IMG/VR virus record: IMGVR_UViG_3300020040_000006
Location: 1-6,060 of that record
Direction: 5' to 3' (one strand)
Length of the DNA stretch: 6,060 nt
Source of the DNA: a virus
Shown one piece after another: positions 1 to 6,060 of the stretch; position 1 is the stretch's first letter, and every line of letters begins with the position of its first letter. The position numbers were made by a program, and so were the translations under genes. The notes under the pieces are model-generated. The model had not been told where the DNA came from. It saw only the letters and a list, made by a program, of their open reading frames with translations, and did not search any database.

Positions 1-121
1 CGACGGTTACGTATCCATATGGGAGAAGAGCAAGGCATTAGAGTAAACTTCGAAGGCAATCAAATTTAATGCTGGGGTGATCGAGGCGACAACGAATAAG
101 GTAATCATTCGCGGGTGTCTC
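1..121. repeat. Terminal direct redundancy (left copy), identical to 5940-6060; a circular-contig overlap rather than a biological repeat
   Basis: Base-by-base comparison shows 1-121 = 5940-6060 with offset 5,939. The region contains the Rep 5' end (ATG at 38 = 5977) and the 3' end of the upstream ORF. Confidence 0.95.
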
Positions 122-438: not shown

Positions 439-484
439 GCCAGCGGGCTAAAGAATTCGGCCTCCAAGAGGACGAGTTACAACT

Positions 485-808
485 TTAGTCCCTTTTCCCT
501 TCTTCTTTCGACGTGACTTCATTGCAATCGATATCAAGGTTAAACATAAGAATGATCGTATTATCGAAGAACTCGATGCAGAAATCGGGAAGGGCCTCGC
601 AGACACCAACAAGGCCGGAGATATCCGAGTGGTCAACGTAGAGAGAATCGCTGATATGCGAACTCTTCAAATAGGGTGCAATAGGAGAATCTGCGATAGC
701 GCTGAAAGGGAGGGACTCAAATTGTCGGTCCTTGAGGTATCCTACCTGAGCGAGATCAATTTTGAGAGCCGGATTAATTCGACGAATAACAACATGAATC
801 TGTGTCAT
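485..808 (-). CDS. Hypothetical acidic protein, 107 aa; second gene of the accessory cassette
   Basis: ATG at 808-806 and TAA at 487-485. It begins 11 nt after the stop of the upstream ORF. D+E is about 17 versus K+R about 9. No recognisable motif. Contains repeat copy 526-545 (peptide FNLDID). Confidence 0.6.
   Translation of the reverse strand: MTQIHVVIRRINPALKIDLAQVGYLKDRQFESLPFSAIADSPIAPYLKSSHISDSLYVDHSDISGLVGVCEALPDFCIEFFDNTIILMFNLDIDCNEVTSKEEGKRD
526..545 (-). repeat. 20-nt repeat copy 1; viral strand reads GTTTAACCTTGATATCGATT
   Basis: 19/20 identical to 2926-2945, same orientation, offset exactly 2,400 nt. Contains the overlapping palindromes ATCGAT and GATATC, and CTTGATAT. Confidence 0.8.
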
Positions 809-819
809 AATAATATAGT

Positions 820-1137
820 TTAAAGAATAGATTTGAATTTACCGCAAAAACGACACCAAAGATTCGACTGGTCCACCCAAAAGTCGTAACCTTCCGGCGT
901 CATAGCGAACGGGAAAGACGTAGTAATGATAGCTTCGGCAGCCGCGCCTCGCAAACGGCATACACTGCGAAGTTTAATGCGCAAATTGTCGCGAAAAGAT
1001 CGATGATTCGGGTGAAATGCCTCATAATTCCTTTTATACGCAGCAAATGAATTTTGGCGAACAAGCCATTCAATGAACACGTACTCAAGAACATCGACAG
1101 AGAGGTCTGAGAGCCTGGAATTTTTGTTTGCTTTCAT
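820..1137 (-). CDS. Hypothetical basic protein, 105 aa; first gene of the accessory cassette
   Basis: ATG at 1137-1135 and TAA at 822-820. It lies 26 nt downstream of a Bacteroidota-type -7 box. Net charge is about +6. C-terminal motif TPEGYDFW...WCRFCGK includes a CxxC pair. I cannot assign a family. Confidence 0.6.
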   Translation of the reverse strand: MKANKNSRLSDLSVDVLEYVFIEWLVRQNSFAAYKRNYEAFHPNHRSFRDNLRIKLRSVCRLRGAAAEAIITTSFPFAMTPEGYDFWVDQSNLWCRFCGKFKSIL

Positions 1138-1223: not shown

Positions 1224-2474
1224 TTACCTCACATAACGACGGCTGGCCTTCGTGGTTCCTGCGTATCTGCCATCTTTGCCGTAAATCTCCCTACTTTCAT
1301 CGTAATCAACAGGAGCAGGGCGCTTTGTAGCGGCCGTACCGGCGATAGCCATAGCGCCAACCAAGGCAGTTCTCGCCAAACTATAGCCAAAAGCATTCTT
1401 ACTGGAGCGGTTTTGAAACCAGCGACCCGAGAGGTCTTGCTCACCTTCCGAAGCAGCGAGACCCATAAGCTTCTGATGAATCTGACGACCTGTCAGCTTT
1501 ATTGTCTTACCGGTAGGTTTGCCCTTTCCATCAACCTCGGGGACGTCTATTTCCGAATCCCAATTGATATTAAACCACTCGCGAAGATCGGCGAGGTTGA
1601 CTTTGCGTATCTCGGACTCAACATTTAAAACATCGCCAGAAGCGGCGGATTCGTAAGCGGCGGCAAAATCCCGGGCGATTTGAGCAGCGTAAACGGAATC
1701 AAAGTACTTGTCGTTGTATTTCTTGATCTGATTCGCTTCTTCAACATGCTTCGAATACATGGCGACGAAGTCTTGAAACTTATATGTAGCCATAAGATCG
1801 GCATACTCGGCGTCAGCAGTGTGGATGTCAGCCAGGGCGCGATTAAGGCGAATCAACTCAGAAACGTTATCGATGTGATGCTCCAAAGACTTCTTCTCCA
1901 AGTTATCCATCTCCTTTCGCCAGTCAGCGCTGTGAGTATTACCTCTCATGAGGTCAGCTTCGGCGTTATCGCGGTTAGCAGCAGCAGCGTTGCGATCGAC
2001 CGAGGAGCGAGCCATCATATTCTGTGCAATAGCCGCAGGATCGGAGGCTGCAAAACCACCGGGAGCAACGGGCGAGCCGCCGGAGGGGCCGGAGGCGGAA
2101 GGCATAGATGCAGAACCACCTGACATGGTAGCGTTAACGCCGACTCCGGAAGAACCTAAAACGGCGGCGGGCGTTACACCGGCCTTCAAATAACGGTCGA
2201 AAACCTTCGAGGGATCATTATAGGCATTTTCGTAATCAAACTGCTTCTGCCAATTAGCGTAAGAAAGTTCAGACTGCTTCTGCATCTGCTCGAGAGCATA
2301 CTGTTGTTGAAGCTTCATCTGTTTTTGCTGAAACTTCCACTGGCGACGAGCATTCATGCCGCCAAAAAGCTGGCCTAAAAAACCGTTGATCAGGCCGGTA
2401 GTGCCGGTAGAAGCAGCAGATTCTCCAAGGGCGCGGCCGAAAGAGGGGGAGGCAGTAGCAAAAGGGGTAGCCAT
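1224..2474 (-). CDS. VP2: Minor capsid / DNA pilot protein, VP2-like, 416 aa
   Basis: The Gly-rich hydrophobic N-terminus (TGLINGFLGQLFGG) is followed by a Q/K-rich helical segment (RRQWKFQQKQMKLQQQYALEQMQKQ). Next come a motif resembling the gokushovirus VP2 ...LKAGLNP... box (RYLKAGVTPAAVLG), a G/S/A/P low-complexity linker and a long helical region. I place the start at the ATG 2474-2472, 1 nt after the stop of the upstream ORF. The 2606 start in the ORF track would overlap that ORF. Confidence 0.75.
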   Translation of the reverse strand: MATPFATASPSFGRALGESAASTGTTGLINGFLGQLFGGMNARRQWKFQQKQMKLQQQYALEQMQKQSELSYANWQKQFDYENAYNDPSKVFDRYLKAGVTPAAVLGSSGVGVNATMSGGSASMPSASGPSGGSPVAPGGFAASDPAAIAQNMMARSSVDRNAAAANRDNAEADLMRGNTHSADWRKEMDNLEKKSLEHHIDNVSELIRLNRALADIHTADAEYADLMATYKFQDFVAMYSKHVEEANQIKKYNDKYFDSVYAAQIARDFAAAYESAASGDVLNVESEIRKVNLADLREWFNINWDSEIDVPEVDGKGKPTGKTIKLTGRQIHQKLMGLAASEGEQDLSGRWFQNRSSKNAFGYSLARTALVGAMAIAGTAATKRPAPVDYDESREIYGKDGRYAGTTKASRRYVR

Positions 2475-2475
2475 A

Positions 2476-2667
2476 CTACATGCGGATTGAATTGTTAGAA
2501 CGAATAATGTAGTCGACGCGCACCGTGTCGATGTGCACACCGCTGCGTTGCATCCTGGCCTGGGCGGAACAAGACGACAAGAAAAAAGCAGCCAAGGCAG
2601 CGACAATGGAAGAAACGAGTGTCCAAAAAGCCTTAGACTTGTAAAAGGGTTGTTTGGTATCAGACAT
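2476..2667 (-). CDS. Small predicted lipoprotein, 63-aa precursor (alternative in-frame ATG at 2778 gives 100 aa)
   Basis: From the ATG at 2667-2665 the sequence is MSDTKQPFYKSK (n-region), AFWTLVSSIVAALAAFF (h-region) and lipobox L-S-S-C (2580-2569, TTG TCG TCT TGT). This leaves a 31-aa mature peptide, CSAQARMQRSGVHIDTVRVDYIIRSNNSIRM. The TAG stop lies 1 nt before the VP2 ATG. Confidence 0.55.
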   Translation of the reverse strand: MSDTKQPFYKSKAFWTLVSSIVAALAAFFLSSCSAQARMQRSGVHIDTVRVDYIIRSNNSIRM

Positions 2668-2697
2668 AGGAATAAAATTTAAAGAACGATAGAAAAA

Positions 2698-2770
2698 TGC
2701 GCGAACTCTCCTGCAGTCGTTACCAATAACCTTCAGCAATTCACGAACTCTCGCAGAAGGGGTTCGCGCA
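2698..2770. repeat. 9-bp inverted repeat (tgcgcgaac / gttcgcgca) enclosing a duplicated cgaactctc(..)gcag motif
   Basis: 2698-2706 is the reverse complement of 2762-2770. Direct repeat cgaactctc occurs at 2702-2710 and 2744-2752, each followed by gcag. The region lies between the stop of ORF 2801-3097 and the ATG at 2667. Confidence 0.6.
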
Positions 2771-2800
2771 CGTAGCATATATCGTCAAGTAAAGGATGTA

Positions 2801-3097
2801 CTATTTTTCTTCAGAATCAGCAGGGCTTGAAGCGGACTTTGACTTATCGAGCTGAGAATCAATAAGTTCCTGACCGACCTCAAGACCGTCAAACTTATCC
2901 ATACGAGAGAAAGAATTAGGATCAAAATCGATATCAGGGTTAAACCTCTCTTCCTTCGCGAAATCGGAAGGTTCGGCTATCACATCCGGACGACCAGGAA
3001 GGACGTCGACGGACCCGGAACCGTCAAGAACGGAAAGAATACGCTGACCACGAGAGATATAGGCGGGAGCGTCCTCAAGTAACCAATCAAGTGCCAT
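2801..3097 (-). CDS. Strongly acidic 98-aa protein directly downstream of VP1; possible scaffolding-type (VP3-like) protein, function unproven
   Basis: ATG at 3097-3095, 12 nt after the VP1 stop, and TAG at 2803-2801. About 22 D+E versus 10 K+R. Serine/acidic tail SASSPADSEEK. Contains repeat copy 2926-2945 (peptide FNPDID). Confidence 0.6.
   Translation of the reverse strand: MALDWLLEDAPAYISRGQRILSVLDGSGSVDVLPGRPDVIAEPSDFAKEERFNPDIDFDPNSFSRMDKFDGLEVGQELIDSQLDKSKSASSPADSEEK
2926..2945 (-). repeat. 20-nt repeat copy 2; viral strand reads GTTTAACCCTGATATCGATT
   Basis: 19/20 identical to 526-545. The single mismatch is at 2937 versus 537. Confidence 0.8.
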
Positions 3098-3109: not shown

Positions 3110-4903
3110 TTAACGATTAGACAAACGGGTTGCAAATGTTTTATTAACCAAATTCTTCTTCTGGATAGAATACGAAAGGTTGACGAAGAAATTGTCTTCC
3201 CGCTTAGAAGCAAACGGAGAGTTCACCTGATCGACATCCACGAACAAAAGGGAGTAATACTGGTTATAGCTTGCCGACAAAACACGCTGTTGAACCCAAT
3301 AAGAATAAAGAGGTACGCTGCTATCAGCGCCTTGAAATCGAGATAGTTGACCAAGAACCTCATCATACGAGGATCGAAACTCGTTAAAACACGGTTCGTA
3401 AGCCACGGCCTCCGAGGCCGAGGTGGTCCCAAAACCGAACTGGAATCCGGGAACATCCTGATAACCAATATCGTTGTAGATCGGATTAAAGTAATCAGCG
3501 CCAGTATAATGAAGGTAATCAGGGTAAACACCTGCCCAATAGTAAACAGGTCGAATACTCAACATATCGATCAAGTAGCCAGGTTCGCGAAAATAATAAG
3601 ACTGCCGACGACCGAGTCGATCGTTGAAAGCGATAGCGCCACCCTGCTGACCGAGAGGAGGCATGGAGTACGAATCATTTGCAAAATTGTTAGCACCAGC
3701 CTGATTCATAACGACTTGAACATTGACAGTCTGCGATGCACTAAATAAAAGCTTAGGTCGATCGACATGCTCAATCTTTGAAGCAAAAAAGGTTTCCAGC
3801 CAGTCGCTGTAACGAGAACCTCCAGCACCAAGCAAATCCTTGTATTCCTGAAGCCGCGAAGCGATAGCCAGTTGCGGAATAGTCGAAACGCCTGACATGG
3901 AGACGCCTTCAGAGCTACCAACGGGGAGCAACCGACTATAGCGATCGGGGTTCGAAGGTATAACGGCCATCGGATGGGCGACAAGGAACGACCCGAGTGT
4001 AGTGACAGCCGTAGTGCCAGCGTCGGTAGAAAACTGATCTGCAGGACCCGCGGTGGACAACGAAGAACTTCCGGGATAGATAGTAGAGACGGGATAGCCG
4101 TCCTTGGAGGCGGTAATCGTAGAGCCAAGGTCCGAAAGCAATATCTGGGAAAAAAGATTTCCTCTATTATACGTATTGTTCGAAGACGGCACAGCCGAAG
4201 GATAGAACTGACTCTCGAAATAAGCATCGAGGAATTCGAGGCTTCCGAATCTTTGCGAGAAAAATCTCGGCGTATCACTGAACTGAAGGACGTTGTATGT
4301 AGTACCGGTATTGTTAGGGATGAAATACCAGCTGCTGGGCCAAGCGAAAGAATAGAGTCCCCACTGGGAATAGCCGTAGTAGTTGCGGACGATATCCCAA
4401 TAAGCAAGATAAGAATCAGCAGTACACCAACCTAAAGGATATCCCAATTGAGCGGTCGAAAGGTTGGCCGACATAGGAACATTGCTGGAAGTTGCCACCG
4501 GGATAGAAGCAGGAATAATGCGTAACCAACGAAGCAACGAATTGGAATAGGGGTAGTTGTTGCCGGTAAACGGGTAGGACGCGGTCGACGCAGCGGCAAC
4601 GAAATTCAAGCTCAAATCATTCATATCGAACTTACTACTATTCGTCCTCATCTCGGGATGGTACAACTGAAGAGGCACCCAGAAACGATGCAAGCGAATA
4701 GTGTAAGGATTGAATGTAGGAACAGCGAGCGGATTGCTACGGACGTCAATACCTTGCTCAATGGATACGCGATCTCGAGCGTTGATAAAATCAATCCGCA
4801 CCGGATACAAAATACCCGGTGTACACGTAAAGGCCTTGCTCTCGGGGACATCATAGCGAGAGTAGCCGTTTACAGCGTGTGAGATAAAAGGTTGTTTTCC
4901 CAT
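3110..4903 (-). CDS. VP1: Major capsid protein, Microviridae VP1/F family, 597 aa
   Basis: Largest ORF, with ATG 3 nt after the Rep stop. The N-terminal block (SRYDVPESKAFTCTPGILYPVRIDFINARDRV) resembles the conserved microvirus capsid N-terminus (..G.L.P.....PGD-type). The protein is very rich in aromatics, Ser and Asn. The C-terminal EDNFFVNLSYSI...TRL block resembles the terminal strands of F/VP1. Size and position fit the family. Confidence 0.88.
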   Translation of the reverse strand: MGKQPFISHAVNGYSRYDVPESKAFTCTPGILYPVRIDFINARDRVSIEQGIDVRSNPLAVPTFNPYTIRLHRFWVPLQLYHPEMRTNSSKFDMNDLSLNFVAAASTASYPFTGNNYPYSNSLLRWLRIIPASIPVATSSNVPMSANLSTAQLGYPLGWCTADSYLAYWDIVRNYYGYSQWGLYSFAWPSSWYFIPNNTGTTYNVLQFSDTPRFFSQRFGSLEFLDAYFESQFYPSAVPSSNNTYNRGNLFSQILLSDLGSTITASKDGYPVSTIYPGSSSLSTAGPADQFSTDAGTTAVTTLGSFLVAHPMAVIPSNPDRYSRLLPVGSSEGVSMSGVSTIPQLAIASRLQEYKDLLGAGGSRYSDWLETFFASKIEHVDRPKLLFSASQTVNVQVVMNQAGANNFANDSYSMPPLGQQGGAIAFNDRLGRRQSYYFREPGYLIDMLSIRPVYYWAGVYPDYLHYTGADYFNPIYNDIGYQDVPGFQFGFGTTSASEAVAYEPCFNEFRSSYDEVLGQLSRFQGADSSVPLYSYWVQQRVLSASYNQYYSLLFVDVDQVNSPFASKREDNFFVNLSYSIQKKNLVNKTFATRLSNR

Positions 4904-4906
4904 AAA

Positions 4907-5977
4907 TTAAATGTTTAGTTGAAGTTTATAATGGTCTCTCCAAAACTGGAGAATGTCCATATCTAACCAAGTGGGAGGGTCAAAGTCGGGCATCTTGCGA
5001 GAAGAGGCGGAAAAACGCATTATTTGCTTTTGCTCCCACGTATACGACGCTCTACGGGATACGGAGGAATCGAGGGCGAACCGCTTAACGCACAGAGACA
5101 CAATACGCTTAACCAGAGGAGACTTGCTAAAACGTGCATAAGAATCAGCAGCGGTAATCGCGCGAGCAACCTCGTCTTCTGATTTGAGATATCTAAGATA
5201 ATAACGAGGAATCGAGTAATTATAACTAATACGCTTCTCAAAATCAAAATAAGACCACGACGAAGCACGGGCAGAAGGGCGAGGCATATAACCAAGAAAA
5301 TCACCAACGCCAGCAGATACGAATTTTCGCGTATAACGGCGATGTTGGAGGAGGCAAGATAAAGGCGTAAGGTTTCCATTTACGGTAACATATTTATCCG
5401 AAATTTCTTCGGGATTAAACTGAATCTGTTTAGTAACATATTTAACGCAGTATCGAGCGCGCTTATGAGTGGCTTTAGCTAACCACACAAAACCAAGGTC
5501 TCGAACGGCGGAACGAATAGTGTTATAAAGGACGTTTGTGCCAAACAAAAAACCGTGAAAATGCAGCCGAGGCTCATTTCCTGTTTCTGGATGAGTACCA
5601 AACTCCTGGAAAAAGGCATGCTTAAACGAATGACCGAGCTTGTGGCGGAGACGTTCGTTGAATCGGCGGATAAATCGAGACGGATCAAGCAAAGCTTCAT
5701 TGTAATATTTAGGCGATATGGTAATCGTAATAAAAACAGCCTGCTGATGCTCAGCCTTACATCGAGCAAGCTCACGCTCTAAACGCACGAACCAATCATT
5801 ACGCTGACGACGCAAGCAGTCCTCACACTTTCCACACGGAACCATCAACCATTGGCGGGCGATATCCCAAGGGCGAAGAGCAAGCGCAGACTTGGCAACA
5901 TCAGAGCCATCTCGGCAAGGGTTCTTCTTGTCAAAATAGCGACGGTTACGTATCCATATGGGAGAAGAGCAAGGCAT
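4907..5977 (-). CDS. VP4: Rolling-circle replication initiator, Microviridae VP4 / phiX A-like HUH endonuclease, 356 aa
   Basis: N-terminus MPCSSPIW and Cys cluster CGKCEDC (5836-5816). Motif I is VFITITISP. The HUH motif is LHFHGFLF, with H-F-H encoded by CAT TTT CAC at 5563-5555. The two-tyrosine catalytic motif YCVKYVTK (5452-5429) parallels phiX174 YVAKYVNK. The ORF track starts at a TTG (5998). I prefer the first ATG at 5977, which forms TAATG with the upstream ORF. Confidence 0.93.
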   Translation of the reverse strand: MPCSSPIWIRNRRYFDKKNPCRDGSDVAKSALALRPWDIARQWLMVPCGKCEDCLRRQRNDWFVRLERELARCKAEHQQAVFITITISPKYYNEALLDPSRFIRRFNERLRHKLGHSFKHAFFQEFGTHPETGNEPRLHFHGFLFGTNVLYNTIRSAVRDLGFVWLAKATHKRARYCVKYVTKQIQFNPEEISDKYVTVNGNLTPLSCLLQHRRYTRKFVSAGVGDFLGYMPRPSARASSWSYFDFEKRISYNYSIPRYYLRYLKSEDEVARAITAADSYARFSKSPLVKRIVSLCVKRFALDSSVSRRASYTWEQKQIMRFSASSRKMPDFDPPTWLDMDILQFWRDHYKLQLNI

Positions 5978-6060
5978 TAGAGTAAACTTCGAAGGCAATC
6001 AAATTTAATGCTGGGGTGATCGAGGCGACAACGAATAAGGTAATCATTCGCGGGTGTCTC
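5940..6060. repeat. Terminal direct redundancy (right copy), identical to 1-121
   Basis: Same comparison as above. The identity runs to the last base of the window. Confidence 0.95.

What the first reader, a model, noticed from the sequence alone, without database searches (positions are those of the whole stretch)
2476..2667. Small lipobox-bearing ORF between the capsid-module genes: candidate lysis lipoprotein in a microvirus
The 63-aa ORF has a textbook lipoprotein signal: a Lys-containing n-region, a 17-aa hydrophobic core and lipobox LSS|C. The mature peptide is only about 31 aa. It is packed 1 nt upstream of VP2, so it is probably expressed with the late genes. Outside the phiX-like bullaviruses (gene E), no lysis gene is established for gokusho/alpa-like microviruses. 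Very small lipoproteins are the known effectors in colicin release (BRP/lysis proteins, about 28-aa mature) and in outer-membrane disruption (o-spanins, u-spanins). An outer-membrane or lysis role, or a superinfection-exclusion role, is therefore plausible and would be new for this family.
Basis: partly seen in the sequence, partly recalled or inferred. Interest (0 to 1): 0.7.

Follow-up and report, generated by a model that had tools for sequence, protein, structure and literature searches.

The report
Tiny conserved lipoprotein of gut microviruses
This small single-stranded-DNA gut phage carries a real, strongly conserved 63-codon gene for a very small lipid-anchored secreted peptide; nobody has studied this protein family, and it most likely acts on the host cell envelope, either to help the phage get out or to keep other phages from getting in.

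Summary
Window 2476-2667 (minus strand) is a genuine 63-aa gene with a PROSITE-type lipoprotein signal. Cys33 is invariant in 120/120 homologues. pN/pS is about 0.1, with synonymous sites near saturation. The stop lies 1 nt before the VP2 start.

The alternative 100-aa reading from ATG 2778 is wrong. That ATG sits in a conserved non-coding element (invariant block, covarying hairpin, T-run).

The family occurs only on microvirus-sized contigs. All sampled relatives with VP1 at least 48% identical have it. It has at least two mature-peptide types on one signal peptide. It is 56-64% identical between lineages whose VP1, VP2 and VP4 are only 24-36% identical. It matches no Pfam, PHROG, NCBIfam, PADLOC or PDB entry, and I found no paper on it. 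GenBank carries only an automatic "lipoprotein" label.

Function is unresolved. I favour a lysis or egress role (about 0.4), because the gene stays conserved while capsid and pilot genes are mosaic. Llp/Cor-like superinfection exclusion is close behind (about 0.3).

The "only membrane protein" argument for lysis fails. A constrained, unannotated 119-aa hydrophobic ORF with three predicted membrane segments is overprinted in the replication gene (5020-5379).

The parts
2476..2667 (-). Lipoprotein gene: 63 codons plus stop TAG at 2476-2478
   Evidence: Third-position-dominated variation and pN/pS about 0.1. 407 homologues.
2572..2667 (-). Signal peptide, residues 1-32: n-region MSDTKQPFYKSK, h-region AFWTLVSSIVAALAAFF, first three lipobox residues LSS
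   Evidence: PS51257-style rule met. SK.FWTL...A..A.F is invariant in alignment A3. Some family members carry unrelated signal peptides but keep the lipobox.
2569..2571 (-). Cys33 codon, the predicted lipidation and cleavage site (LSS|C)
   Evidence: Cys invariant in 120/120 homologues. It is kept in complete members of all mature-peptide types and with all signal-peptide types.
2479..2571 (-). Mature 31-aa peptide CSAQARMQRSGVHIDTVRVDYIIRSNNSIRM (type A). The core G-[VI]-H-x-D-[TS]-V..D-Y is conserved; the last 4-5 residues are free to vary.
   Evidence: Asp47 is invariant across types A and B.
1224..2474 (-). VP2 (DNA pilot protein) gene. Its ATG lies 1 nt after the lipoprotein stop.
   Evidence: PHROG pilot-protein hit at 1.4e-8. 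Spacing is 4 nt or less in nearly all relatives examined; in L096 the lipoprotein ORF overlaps the annotated VP2 start.
2681..2793 (-). Conserved non-coding element directly upstream. It has an invariant block TTTACTTGACGATATATGCTAC (2772-2793, containing the false start ATG 2778), a hairpin (2698-2771) and a T-rich tail (2681-2697).
   Evidence: 88% nucleotide identity to an unannotated stretch of PQ006896. No codon periodicity. 14 of 20 predicted pairs show compensatory changes. DNA fold z-score -2.4. Present in L097/L098, which lack the lipoprotein.
2801..3097 (-). Upstream neighbour: a 98-aa acidic protein in the VP3 (internal scaffold) position
   Evidence: Assigned by position only. No family hit. 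Conserved in relatives.
5020..5379 (-). Context, not part of the gene: a 119-aa hydrophobic ORF with three predicted membrane segments, overprinted in the +1 frame of VP4. It is the rival lysis candidate.
   Evidence: ATG, stop position and an immediately upstream stop are invariant in 47/47 genomes. VP4 synonymous third-position differences fall from about 0.45 to 0.09-0.24 in the 20-codon windows covering codons 201-320 and return to 0.49 afterwards. Equivalent ORFs exist in L085, L086, L088, L090 and L098.

Best explanation
SHOWN: window 2476-2667 (minus strand) is a functional 63-codon gene under strong purifying selection. Its product has every sequence feature of a signal-peptidase-II (lipoprotein) precursor.

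INFERRED from the established Sec/Lgt/Lsp pathway: the precursor is exported, diacylglycerol-modified on Cys33 and cleaved before it. This leaves a basic 31-aa lipopeptide. [quoted passage not shown] The host is probably Bacteroidota, since no gene has a Shine-Dalgarno sequence.

INFERRED, my committed reading: the peptide binds a conserved host envelope component and contributes to host lysis or virion release. It would do this either alone, as a lipoprotein-type single-gene lysis factor (by analogy with colicin BRP lipoproteins or with periplasm-side inhibitors or activators of cell-wall metabolism), or together with the overprinted membrane protein inside VP4 (three predicted membrane segments; 5020-5379), which would supply the inner-membrane lesion. 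No muralytic enzyme is encoded, so lysis would have to work through host functions.

Expression: the gene lies downstream of a conserved hairpin and T-run and abuts VP2 with 1 nt between them.
For: Gene and lipoprotein status.

Core gene of its clade: every sampled relative with VP1 at least 48% identical carries a type A or type B copy, nearly always immediately upstream of VP2.

Independent of the virion:
- The peptide is 56-64% identical to copies in lineages whose VP1, VP2 and VP4 are 24-36% identical, where it sits at another genome position.
- Within L005-L084 it is 86-98% identical, while VP2 ranges 44-95% (median 54%) and VP1 66-94%.

Lipidation matters more than the particular signal peptide: members with unrelated signal peptides keep the lipobox Cys and the mature motif.

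No peptidoglycan hydrolase is present. The M15 peptidase is absent from all of the roughly 100 lipoprotein-bearing loci, and four peptidase-bearing microviruses, including the cultured phiHBP1, lack the lipoprotein. Peptidases are the proposed lysis genes of other microviruses (PMC3394797, PMC9239249).

Precedent: BRP lysis proteins are 47-aa precursors giving 28-aa outer-membrane lipoproteins that permeabilise the envelope through phospholipase A (PMC2896534).

Host: no SD-like motif before any gene, as in phiHBP1 of Bacteroides fragilis.
Against: There is no functional data. No sequence or structure similarity to any lysis protein was found, and the AlphaFold model is unreliable for the mature part (pLDDT about 50).

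A 31-aa peptide cannot be an enzyme, and BRP-type quasi-lysis is not known to release virions.

The sister group L097-L099 shares the genome plan and the upstream element but has no such gene. The gene is therefore dispensable for some close relatives.

A constrained overprinted hydrophobic ORF in VP4 is at least as good a lysis candidate.

The peptidase/lipoprotein exclusivity is confounded by phylogeny and rests on few peptidase genomes.

Several interchangeable mature-peptide types on one signal peptide fit a specificity-determining function such as exclusion just as well.

The host is unknown: two genome scans found no prophage relatives.
Confidence: 0.4

Rival explanations
1. Superinfection exclusion or receptor inactivation, working like T5 Llp or T1/phi80 Cor. 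[quoted passage not shown] This blocks further DNA entry and protects progeny from being wasted on debris and outer-membrane vesicles.
For: - Standalone small outer-membrane lipoproteins of lytic phages with a proven role are exclusion factors. Llp is lipidated, periplasmic, and binds FhuA from the inside (PMC9586334).
- In the main clade the gene abuts VP2, an entry and host-range determinant (phiHBP1 escape mutations map to VP1 and the pilot protein, PMC13064476). This resembles llp lying next to the receptor-binding gene (from memory).
- Several interchangeable mature-peptide types are recombined exactly at the Cys (P0137, P0145), which suggests a specificity module.
- The gene is absent from a sister group, so it behaves as an accessory gene.
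- Exclusion is known to be selected in microviruses (Kirchberger et al. 2021, cited in PMC9239249; not read here).
- A separate lysis candidate exists.
Against: - The peptide does not co-vary with the presumed recognition and entry proteins. It is 86-98% identical across genomes whose VP2 is 44-95% and VP1 66-94% identical. Type B sits in PQ006896, the GenBank relative with the VP1 most similar to the window's.
- The same type A core is used by lineages with 24-30% identical VP1 and VP2.
- There is no similarity to Llp, Cor or any PADLOC model.
- At 31 aa it is half the size of Llp.
Confidence: 0.3
2. A virion-assembly, DNA-packaging or DNA-delivery accessory that is membrane-tethered, for example a factor that positions VP2 or procapsids at the membrane. 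In one lineage this is reflected by 160-223-aa "long forms", in which the lipoprotein ORF runs on to the conserved basic J-like tail.
For: - Tight coupling to the VP2 start in the main clade.
- About 29-35 of the 79 representative clusters are long forms: an N-terminal lipoprotein, a Ser-rich middle, a moderately hydrophobic stretch (median KD17 1.65), and the tail RRGGRRGK.RPK.K.IPLGGSHL.
- The window encodes that tail separately at 448-522.
Against: - An exported lipoprotein and a cytoplasmic DNA-binding tail are topologically incompatible.
- In the long forms the middle is overprinted on another, normal-looking gene (L102 3438-3761, L101 1703-2104), so the long ORF may not be one protein.
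- In other lineages the gene is about 1-2 kb away from VP2.
- The lipoprotein is independent of VP2 type.
Confidence: 0.1
3. Not a lipoprotein. The N-terminal hydrophobic helix is an uncleaved membrane anchor that is itself the effector, as in phiX174 E or LysM-type single-gene lysis proteins, and the Cys is incidental.
For: - The h-region is unusually long (20 uncharged residues).
- In the main group it is the best conserved part of the protein (invariant S11 K12 F14 W15 T16 L17 A24 A27 F29), which is atypical for signal peptides.
- pN/pS there is 0.076 despite saturated synonymous sites.
Against: - Members with completely different hydrophobic segments keep an [AGS]-C lipobox at the junction and the same mature motifs (P0206, P0209-P0223). 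The constant features are therefore the Cys and the mature peptide, not the helix.
- Cys is invariant in 120/120 homologues.
- The mature core is equally constrained (pN/pS 0.10).
Confidence: 0.05
4. The real product is the 100-aa protein from ATG 2778, as annotated in GenBank relatives and called for about 40% of database homologues. It would be non-secreted because the Cys would be at position 70.
For: - The 100-aa ORF is open in the window and in about 43 of 77 close loci.
- It is annotated in MG945455 and MG945141.
- 49 of the 120 listed homologues were called at 100 aa.
Against: - There is no codon periodicity in the extension (2.1/2.4/2.6, against 4.1/2.0/21.4 in the ORF).
- The spacing to the real start shifts frame (110-141 nt).
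- A stop or a missing ATG occurs in about 34 of 77 close loci.
- In distant relatives the stretch is a separate element, up to about 250 nt upstream or terminated.
- It folds into a covarying hairpin.
- It is present in genomes without the lipoprotein.
Confidence: 0.02

Closest known systems
Colicin lysis / bacteriocin release proteins (BRP, Kil, Cel; Pfam Lysis_col)
   Same: A very small SPII lipoprotein (47-aa precursor, 28-aa mature peptide against 63 and 31 here). It is the last small gene packed into an operon of highly expressed genes. It acts on the producer's own envelope without being an enzyme (PMC2896534).
   Different: No sequence similarity (Pfam scan). BRPs are plasmid genes of enterobacteria. 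They work through OMPLA and give leakage (quasi-lysis), which is not known to release virions. The peptide here is basic, with a conserved G-x-H-x-D-T-V..D-Y core. The host is probably Bacteroidota.
Phage superinfection-exclusion lipoproteins Llp (T5) and Cor (T1, phi80, N15)
   Same: [quoted passage not shown] They are shared horizontally among unrelated phages. They are standalone genes with no lysis partners.
   Different: No sequence similarity was detected to any family in the libraries searched; I did not confirm that those libraries hold Llp or Cor models. The peptide is half their size. It has one Cys only; Llp has a disulphide. It does not co-vary with the presumed recognition and entry proteins VP1 and VP2. 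No receptor is known.
Spanins: o-spanin Rz1 with i-spanin Rz, and the unimolecular spanin gp11 of T1
   Same: A small outer-membrane lipoprotein encoded by a phage of a Gram-negative host. The long forms in another lineage have a lipobox, a Ser-rich linker and a C-terminal hydrophobic/basic end, which is superficially the u-spanin layout.
   Different: There is no i-spanin partner, no endolysin and no holin cassette. There is no C-terminal transmembrane domain in the window's protein. It is not Pro-rich and has no periplasmic Cys for disulphide-linked dimers.
phiX174 protein E and other single-gene lysis proteins (amurins)
   Same: A small membrane-targeted protein of a phage too small for a holin-endolysin cassette. 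It would have to lyse by subverting host cell-wall metabolism.
   Different: E is overprinted in gene D, has an uncleaved N-terminal transmembrane domain and no lipobox, and targets MraY from within the membrane. Here the gene has its own reading frame and a conserved lipidation site. The library searches turned up no lipoprotein-type Sgl. The overprinted ORF at 5020-5379 is the more E-like element in this genome.
M15 peptidase accessory genes of Alpavirinae, Gokushovirinae and other microviruses
   Same: An accessory gene, not part of the VP1/VP2/VP4 core, that is exchanged between microvirus families at much higher identity than the capsid gene and sits at varying positions. Kirchberger et al. 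report a peptidase 74% identical against VP1 21% identical (PMC9239249). Here the lipoprotein is 56-64% identical against VP1 24-29%.
   Different: The peptidase is an enzyme with cellular and dsDNA-phage homologues. The lipoprotein has no homologue outside microvirus-sized contigs. The two were never found in the same genome in my sample.

Membership tests
Bacterial SPII lipoprotein precursors (PROSITE PS51257 rule) | Positively charged n-region (K/R in the first 7 residues) | tested here: met
   K5, with K10 and K12 following; net charge +2.
Bacterial SPII lipoprotein precursors (PROSITE PS51257 rule) | Uncharged hydrophobic h-region followed by the lipobox [LIVMFWSTAG]2-[LIVMFYSTAGCQ]-[AGS]-C, with Cys at position 15-35 | tested here: met
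   AALAAF-FL-S-S-C33. This is the only ORF of the window that fits. The 100-aa reading would put the Cys at position 70 and fail the rule.
Bacterial SPII lipoprotein precursors (PROSITE PS51257 rule) | The lipidated Cys is conserved among homologues | tested here: met
   120/120 homologues. It is kept with unrelated signal peptides and in all mature-peptide types.
Bacterial SPII lipoprotein precursors (PROSITE PS51257 rule) | Actual diacylglyceryl modification and Lsp cleavage (globomycin-sensitive) | not testable with these tools
   This needs lipid labelling or globomycin treatment. No SignalP or LipoP tool was available either.
Colicin lysis proteins / BRP (Pfam PF02402 Lysis_col) | Sequence match to the family profile | tested here: not met
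   No Pfam hit at E up to 1 for the 63-aa or the 100-aa form.
Colicin lysis proteins / BRP (Pfam PF02402 Lysis_col) | Small lipoprotein whose expression permeabilises the producer through outer-membrane phospholipase A | not testable with these tools
   Size and lipobox are comparable (PMC2896534), but the activity is untested.
Two-component spanin (o-spanin Rz1 type) | A partner i-spanin gene (type II membrane protein with a coiled-coil periplasmic domain) embedded in, overlapping or adjacent to the lipoprotein gene | tested here: not met
   The neighbours are the VP3-like acidic protein and VP2. No such ORF appears in six frames.
Two-component spanin (o-spanin Rz1 type) | Part of a lysis cassette with endolysin and holin | tested here: not met
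   No muralytic domain in any ORF. No M15 peptidase in about 100 related genomes.
Unimolecular spanin (T1 gp11 type) | N-terminal lipobox plus a C-terminal transmembrane domain in one chain | tested here: not met
   The window's protein ends 31 residues after the Cys and has no second hydrophobic segment. The long forms of another lineage have only a borderline hydrophobic stretch (median KD17 1.65).
Llp/Cor superinfection-exclusion lipoproteins | Sequence or profile similarity | tested here: inconclusive
   No hit to any family in Pfam, NCBIfam, PADLOC or PHROGs at meaningful E-values and no PDB sequence match. I did not check whether these libraries contain Llp or Cor models, so the negative result does not by itself exclude similarity.
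Llp/Cor superinfection-exclusion lipoproteins | Blocks the phage's own receptor; the type tracks the receptor-binding protein | tested here: inconclusive
   No co-variation with overall VP1 or VP2 identity. However, the receptor-contacting residues are unknown and binding cannot be tested here.
phiX174 E-type amurin | Overprinted gene with an uncleaved N-terminal transmembrane domain as effector; homology to E | tested here: not met
   The gene has its own frame in an intergenic slot. The lipobox is conserved while the helix is replaceable. No family hit.

The most novel reading that the evidence does not exclude
A lipidated peptide of about 30 residues is the host-lysis effector of a large clade of gut microviruses, or one half of an enzyme-free two-part system together with the overprinted membrane protein hidden in the replication gene. 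This would be the first lipoprotein-type single-gene lysis factor. It would be a cassette that microvirus lineages with unrelated capsids exchange with each other, and an alternative to the M15 peptidase used by other gut microviruses.
Probability: 0.35. Interest if true: 0.8.

Novelty: new variant of a known kind. Interest (0 to 1): 0.6.

Why it matters
How microviruses other than the phiX174 group lyse their hosts is an old open question, and these phages dominate the ssDNA fraction of gut viromes. This work turns a single-sequence hunch into two defined targets.

The first is a family of tiny lipoproteins. It forms 79 clusters at 50% identity, is restricted to microviruses, is under strong constraint, and is horizontally exchanged.

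The second is a constrained overprinted membrane-protein gene in the same genomes.

Either outcome would be useful. A lipoprotein lysis factor would be a new class of protein antibiotic acting from the periplasmic side in Bacteroidota-like hosts. An exclusion factor would be the first dedicated exclusion gene in microviruses and would point to their unknown receptor or entry channel.

The work also corrects a recurrent annotation error: the 100-aa ORF in GenBank records and in about 40% of gene calls.

Tried and rejected
1. Family libraries. Pfam, PHROGs, NCBIfam, PADLOC and PDB sequence searches with the single protein and with a 21-sequence profile gave nothing meaningful.

2. Structure. AlphaFold2 on the family alignment gave one long helix with pLDDT about 50 over the mature part. 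I judged it unreliable and ran no fold search.

3. Host through prophages. Two scans of 185,579 species genomes, with VP1 and with a VP1 alignment, found no relative (one search failed because the alignment was too diverse). The Bacteroidota assignment therefore rests only on missing SD motifs and the gut origin of relatives.

4. Rfam search of the whole window gave no hit. The simple terminator scan does not flag the hairpin because its loop is too large.

5. The idea that the conserved signal peptide is the effector was rejected, because members with unrelated signal peptides keep the Cys and the mature motif.

6. The idea that the lipoprotein type travels with the VP2 type was suggested by PQ006896 (type B, VP2 44% identical). 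It was rejected, because type A genomes span VP2 identities of 44-95%.

7. Weak profile hits P0221 and P0222 (no Cys, two hydrophobic segments) were checked as a possible holin link. They match no family and I treat them as hydrophobic-segment noise.

8. The three extra ORFs of the lipoprotein-less sister group L097-L099 were scanned for a substitute lysis gene. There were no Pfam hits and no clear transmembrane domain.

9. Literature. No paper links microviruses with a lipoprotein or lipobox, and none describes a lipoprotein Sgl. Kirchberger et al. 2021 could not be read.
Full report
**What the window is.** The 6,060 nt are one circular microvirus genome of 5,939 nt with a 121-nt terminal repeat. 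All genes lie on the minus strand. They are:
- VP4, the replication initiator (4907-5977; Pfam REP_ORF2-G2P)
- VP1, the capsid protein (3110-4903; Pfam Phage_F)
- a 98-aa acidic protein in the VP3 position (2801-3097)
- the small ORF of the finding (2476-2667)
- VP2, the pilot protein (1224-2474; PHROG pilot protein)
- two approximately 105-aa ORFs of unknown function (820-1137 and 485-808)

The nearest GenBank relatives are unclassified faecal Microviridae from pig, musk deer, civet, rodents, lemurs and tortoise. No gene has a Shine-Dalgarno motif. The same is true of phiHBP1, the cultured microvirus of Bacteroides fragilis (PMC13064476). That fits a Bacteroidota host but does not prove one. 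Two scans of representative bacterial genomes found no related prophage.

**Checking the observation.** The ORF, its lipobox (LSS|C33), the 31-aa mature part and the 1-nt gap to the VP2 ATG are exactly as described. A strict PS51257-style rule picks out this ORF alone in six frames. However, 13% of shuffled windows also give a hit, so on its own the pattern is weak evidence.

Comparison with relatives makes the case strong:
- A word-indexed search of 5.8 billion proteins found 407 homologues, all on contigs of microvirus size. One carries the automatic GenBank name "MAG TPA: lipoprotein [Microviridae sp.]".
- In the 120 listed, the Cys is invariant and the lipobox is LAS/LSS/LTS/LGS|C.
- Across 74 distinct close relatives from IMG/VR, substitutions fall overwhelmingly on third codon positions (4.1/2.0/21.4).
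- pN/pS is 0.087 in the n-region, 0.076 in the h-region plus lipobox and 0.102 in the mature core. It is 0.455 in the last five residues. Synonymous sites are near saturation.

This is a real gene under strong purifying selection along almost its whole length.

**Which start codon.** GenBank records and about 40% of gene calls use ATG 2778, giving 100 aa. That reading is wrong, for these reasons:
- The 111-nt "extension" shows no codon periodicity (2.1/2.4/2.6) and far less variation than the gene.
- Its distance to ATG 2667 is 110, 111, 112, 115 or 141 nt in different close relatives.
- It is interrupted or lacks the ATG in about 34 of 77 loci.
- In more distant genomes it is a separate block, up to about 250 nt upstream or closed by a stop.

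It is a non-coding element at 2681-2793. It consists of an invariant TTTACTTGA(C/T)(G/A)ATATATG(C/T)TACG block, a hairpin closed by GTGCGCGrAC/GTyCGCGCA with compensatory changes in 14 of 20 predicted pairs, and the tail CATTTTTCTATCGTTCTTT. It also occurs, in the same VP3-VP2 gap, in genomes that have no lipoprotein gene (L097, L098).

**The family.** A profile search of 1.84 billion representatives found 79 clusters at E up to 1e-3, essentially all short proteins.

One signal peptide (..SKKFWTLV.AIVAALAAFF..SC) is joined to at least two well-populated mature-peptide types:
- Type A: ..G[VI]H.D[TS]V..DY.. (this is the window's type)
- Type B: ..RHYVVQSASS.KSGDTT.TTITYEQ.GN..

Rarer variants also exist. 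An Asp-[Ser/Thr] after a Gly is common to all of them. Natural chimaeras swap the signal peptide and the mature part exactly at the Cys (P0137, P0145). Other members carry entirely different signal peptides but keep an [AGS]-C lipobox and the same mature motifs (P0206, P0209-P0223). The constant features are therefore the lipidated Cys and the peptide after it. This argues for true lipoprotein processing and against the helix being the effector.

No Pfam, PHROG, NCBIfam, PADLOC or PDB sequence match exists. The AlphaFold model is not trustworthy for the mature part.

**Distribution.**
- Every sampled relative with VP1 at least 48% identical to the window's has a type A or B copy, nearly always immediately upstream of VP2.
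- A sister group has the same gene order and the same upstream element but no copy (L097-L099; VP1 39-43% identical by tblastn, 41-45% in the alignment).
- In other microvirus lineages the gene lies between VP2 and VP4 (L087, L089, L100) or directly before VP4 (L101, L102). There it is 56-64% identical to the window's protein, although VP1, VP2 and VP4 are only 24-36% identical.
- Within the window's own group (L005-L084) the lipoprotein (86-98%), VP4 (81-95%) and VP3 (78-95%) are conserved. VP2 (44-95%, median 54%), VP1 (66-94%) and orf105 (32-93%) are mosaic.
- The GenBank relative with the VP1 most similar to the window's, PQ006896, carries type B.

The gene thus behaves as a cassette whose function does not depend on the particular capsid or pilot protein. 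This is the same pattern Kirchberger et al. describe for the lysis-associated peptidase of other microviruses (PMC9239249).

**How it most likely works.**
- Shown: the gene is real and has the sequence features of an SPII precursor.
- Inferred from the general lipoprotein pathway: export, lipidation of Cys33 and cleavage. [quoted passage not shown] I base that location on the absence of acidic residues after the Cys. This rests on my memory of E. coli +2 sorting and Bacteroidetes surface-export signals and was not tested here.
- Inferred: such a peptide can only act by binding something in the envelope.

There are two serious readings.

(a) *Lysis or egress.* The genome has no muralytic enzyme. 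The M15 peptidase proposed as the lysis gene of other gut microviruses (PMC3394797, PMC9239249), and present in phiHBP1, is absent from about 100 lipoprotein-bearing genomes. Four peptidase-bearing genomes lack the lipoprotein. Tiny lytic lipoproteins have a precedent in colicin BRPs (PMC2896534). Independence from VP1 and VP2 fits a host-directed effector.

(b) *Superinfection exclusion.* The proven roles of standalone small phage lipoproteins are of this kind. Llp acts from the periplasm on FhuA (PMC9586334). The gene is missing from a sister group. The interchangeable mature-peptide types look like specificity modules.

I rank (a) slightly higher at 0.4 against 0.3 for (b). The lack of any co-variation with the recognition and entry proteins is direct evidence from these genomes, whereas (b) rests mainly on precedent.

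**An important caveat found on the way.** The argument [quoted passage not shown] does not hold.

A 119-aa, very hydrophobic ORF with three predicted membrane segments and a basic C-terminal tail (PPYPVERRIRGSKSK) is overprinted in the +1 frame of VP4 (5020-5379):
- In 47 of 47 equal-length VP4 genes its ATG, its stop (always at 119 codons) and a stop directly upstream are invariant.
- VP4's synonymous third-position differences fall from about 0.45 to 0.09-0.24 in the 20-codon windows covering codons 201-320, which are overlapped by the ORF (it spans VP4 codons 199-319). They return to 0.49 afterwards.
- VP4's own amino-acid divergence is not lower in that stretch.

This is the classic signature of a functional overprinted gene. 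Equivalent ORFs sit at the same place in relatives whose VP4 is 45-68% identical to the window's by tblastn, including one (L098) that lacks the lipoprotein. Gene callers almost never report it; only 5 database proteins exist. It has no family match. It is the more E-like or holin-like lysis candidate. It may act alone, which would push the lipoprotein towards exclusion, or with the lipoprotein.

**Comparison with known systems.**
- The protein works like a BRP or an Llp/Cor in layout, as a tiny outer-membrane lipoprotein acting on the envelope. It has no sequence similarity to BRPs, and no match that would place it with Llp/Cor.
- It fails the defining features of spanins: no partner, no C-terminal transmembrane domain, no endolysin.
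- It fails those of phiX174 E: not overprinted, and the helix is replaceable.
- I found no publication on it. The only traces are automatic labels, "lipoprotein" and, for type B, a spurious "chitin synthase regulator".

**Verdict.** I rate the finding as a new variant of a known kind (small phage-encoded envelope lipoproteins), in a virus family where none has been described. Interest is 0.6. It makes the microvirus lysis and exclusion question directly testable with two short genes, but the function remains inferential.

Noticed in passing
window 5020-5379, minus strand (inside VP4, +1 frame): An unannotated overprinted gene: a 119-aa, very hydrophobic protein with three predicted membrane segments and a basic C-terminal tail. 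ATG, stop and an upstream stop are invariant in 47/47 relatives. VP4 synonymous variation drops about 2-5-fold in the codon windows it overlaps. Equivalent ORFs occur in relatives whose VP4 is 45-68% identical. Only 5 database proteins exist and there is no family hit. It is a holin-like or E-like lysis candidate.
   Followed up: partly
window 2681-2793, minus strand: A conserved non-coding element between VP3 and the lipoprotein/VP2. It has an invariant block TTTACTTGAyrATATATGyTACG, a hairpin at 2698-2771 with compensatory changes (14 of 20 pairs), and a T-rich tail. Its ACTTGAT(A) matches the 8-mer at the phiX174 viral-strand origin nick site, CAACTTG|ATATTAAT. It could be a replication origin, a complementary-strand priming site or a transcription attenuator. 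There is no Rfam hit.
   Followed up: partly
window 448-522, minus strand (overlaps the 3' end of orf107 at 485-808): A tiny basic ORF, MKSRRKKKGKGTKVVTRPLGGRIL (24 aa). Its K/R-rich..P[LV]GGxxL tail is found in 86 of 108 loci. By size and composition it looks like the J/VP8-type DNA-binding packaging peptide. It is not annotated in any GenBank relative I inspected.
   Followed up: partly
L101 1512-2114; L102 3262-3804; proteins P0151-P0194: In another microvirus lineage the homologous lipoprotein ORF has no stop after the mature peptide. It stays open for about 130 more codons across a normal-looking gene in another frame (L102 3438-3761). It ends in the same basic J-like tail, preceded by a moderately hydrophobic stretch. 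There are 29 such representative clusters of 159-223 aa. It is unexplained whether this is one protein (a u-spanin-like layout), a read-through artefact, or a way to make the J-like peptide.
   Followed up: partly
window 1-121 and 5940-6060: The first and last 121 nt are identical. The window is a circular 5,939-nt genome cut with a terminal overlap, so ORFs near both ends are listed twice.
   Followed up: yes
VP2 (1224-2474), VP1 (3110-4903), orf105 (820-1137) compared with L005-L084: Strong mosaicism. Among genomes whose VP4, VP3 and lipoprotein are 78-98% identical to the window, VP2 ranges 44-95% (median 54%), VP1 66-94% and orf105 32-93%. This implies frequent recombination or diversifying selection on entry and recognition genes.
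   Followed up: no
GenBank/IMG relatives (for example MG945455, MG945141, MG945664, MG945730, MK765557; proteins P0056, P0125): Annotation problems. The gene is either annotated as the wrong 100-aa ORF, fused into an over-long "VP2" (MG945498), or missed altogether. Type B copies carry the spurious automatic name "chitin synthase regulator".
   Followed up: yes
window 2668-2690 and 809-830, minus strand: The sequences just upstream of the lipoprotein ATG (TTCTTTAAATTTTATTCCTATG) and of orf107 (TTCTTTAAACTATATTATTATG) share a TTCTTTAAA..T.TATT motif. This may be a common promoter or translation-initiation context of a host that does not use SD sequences.
   Followed up: no
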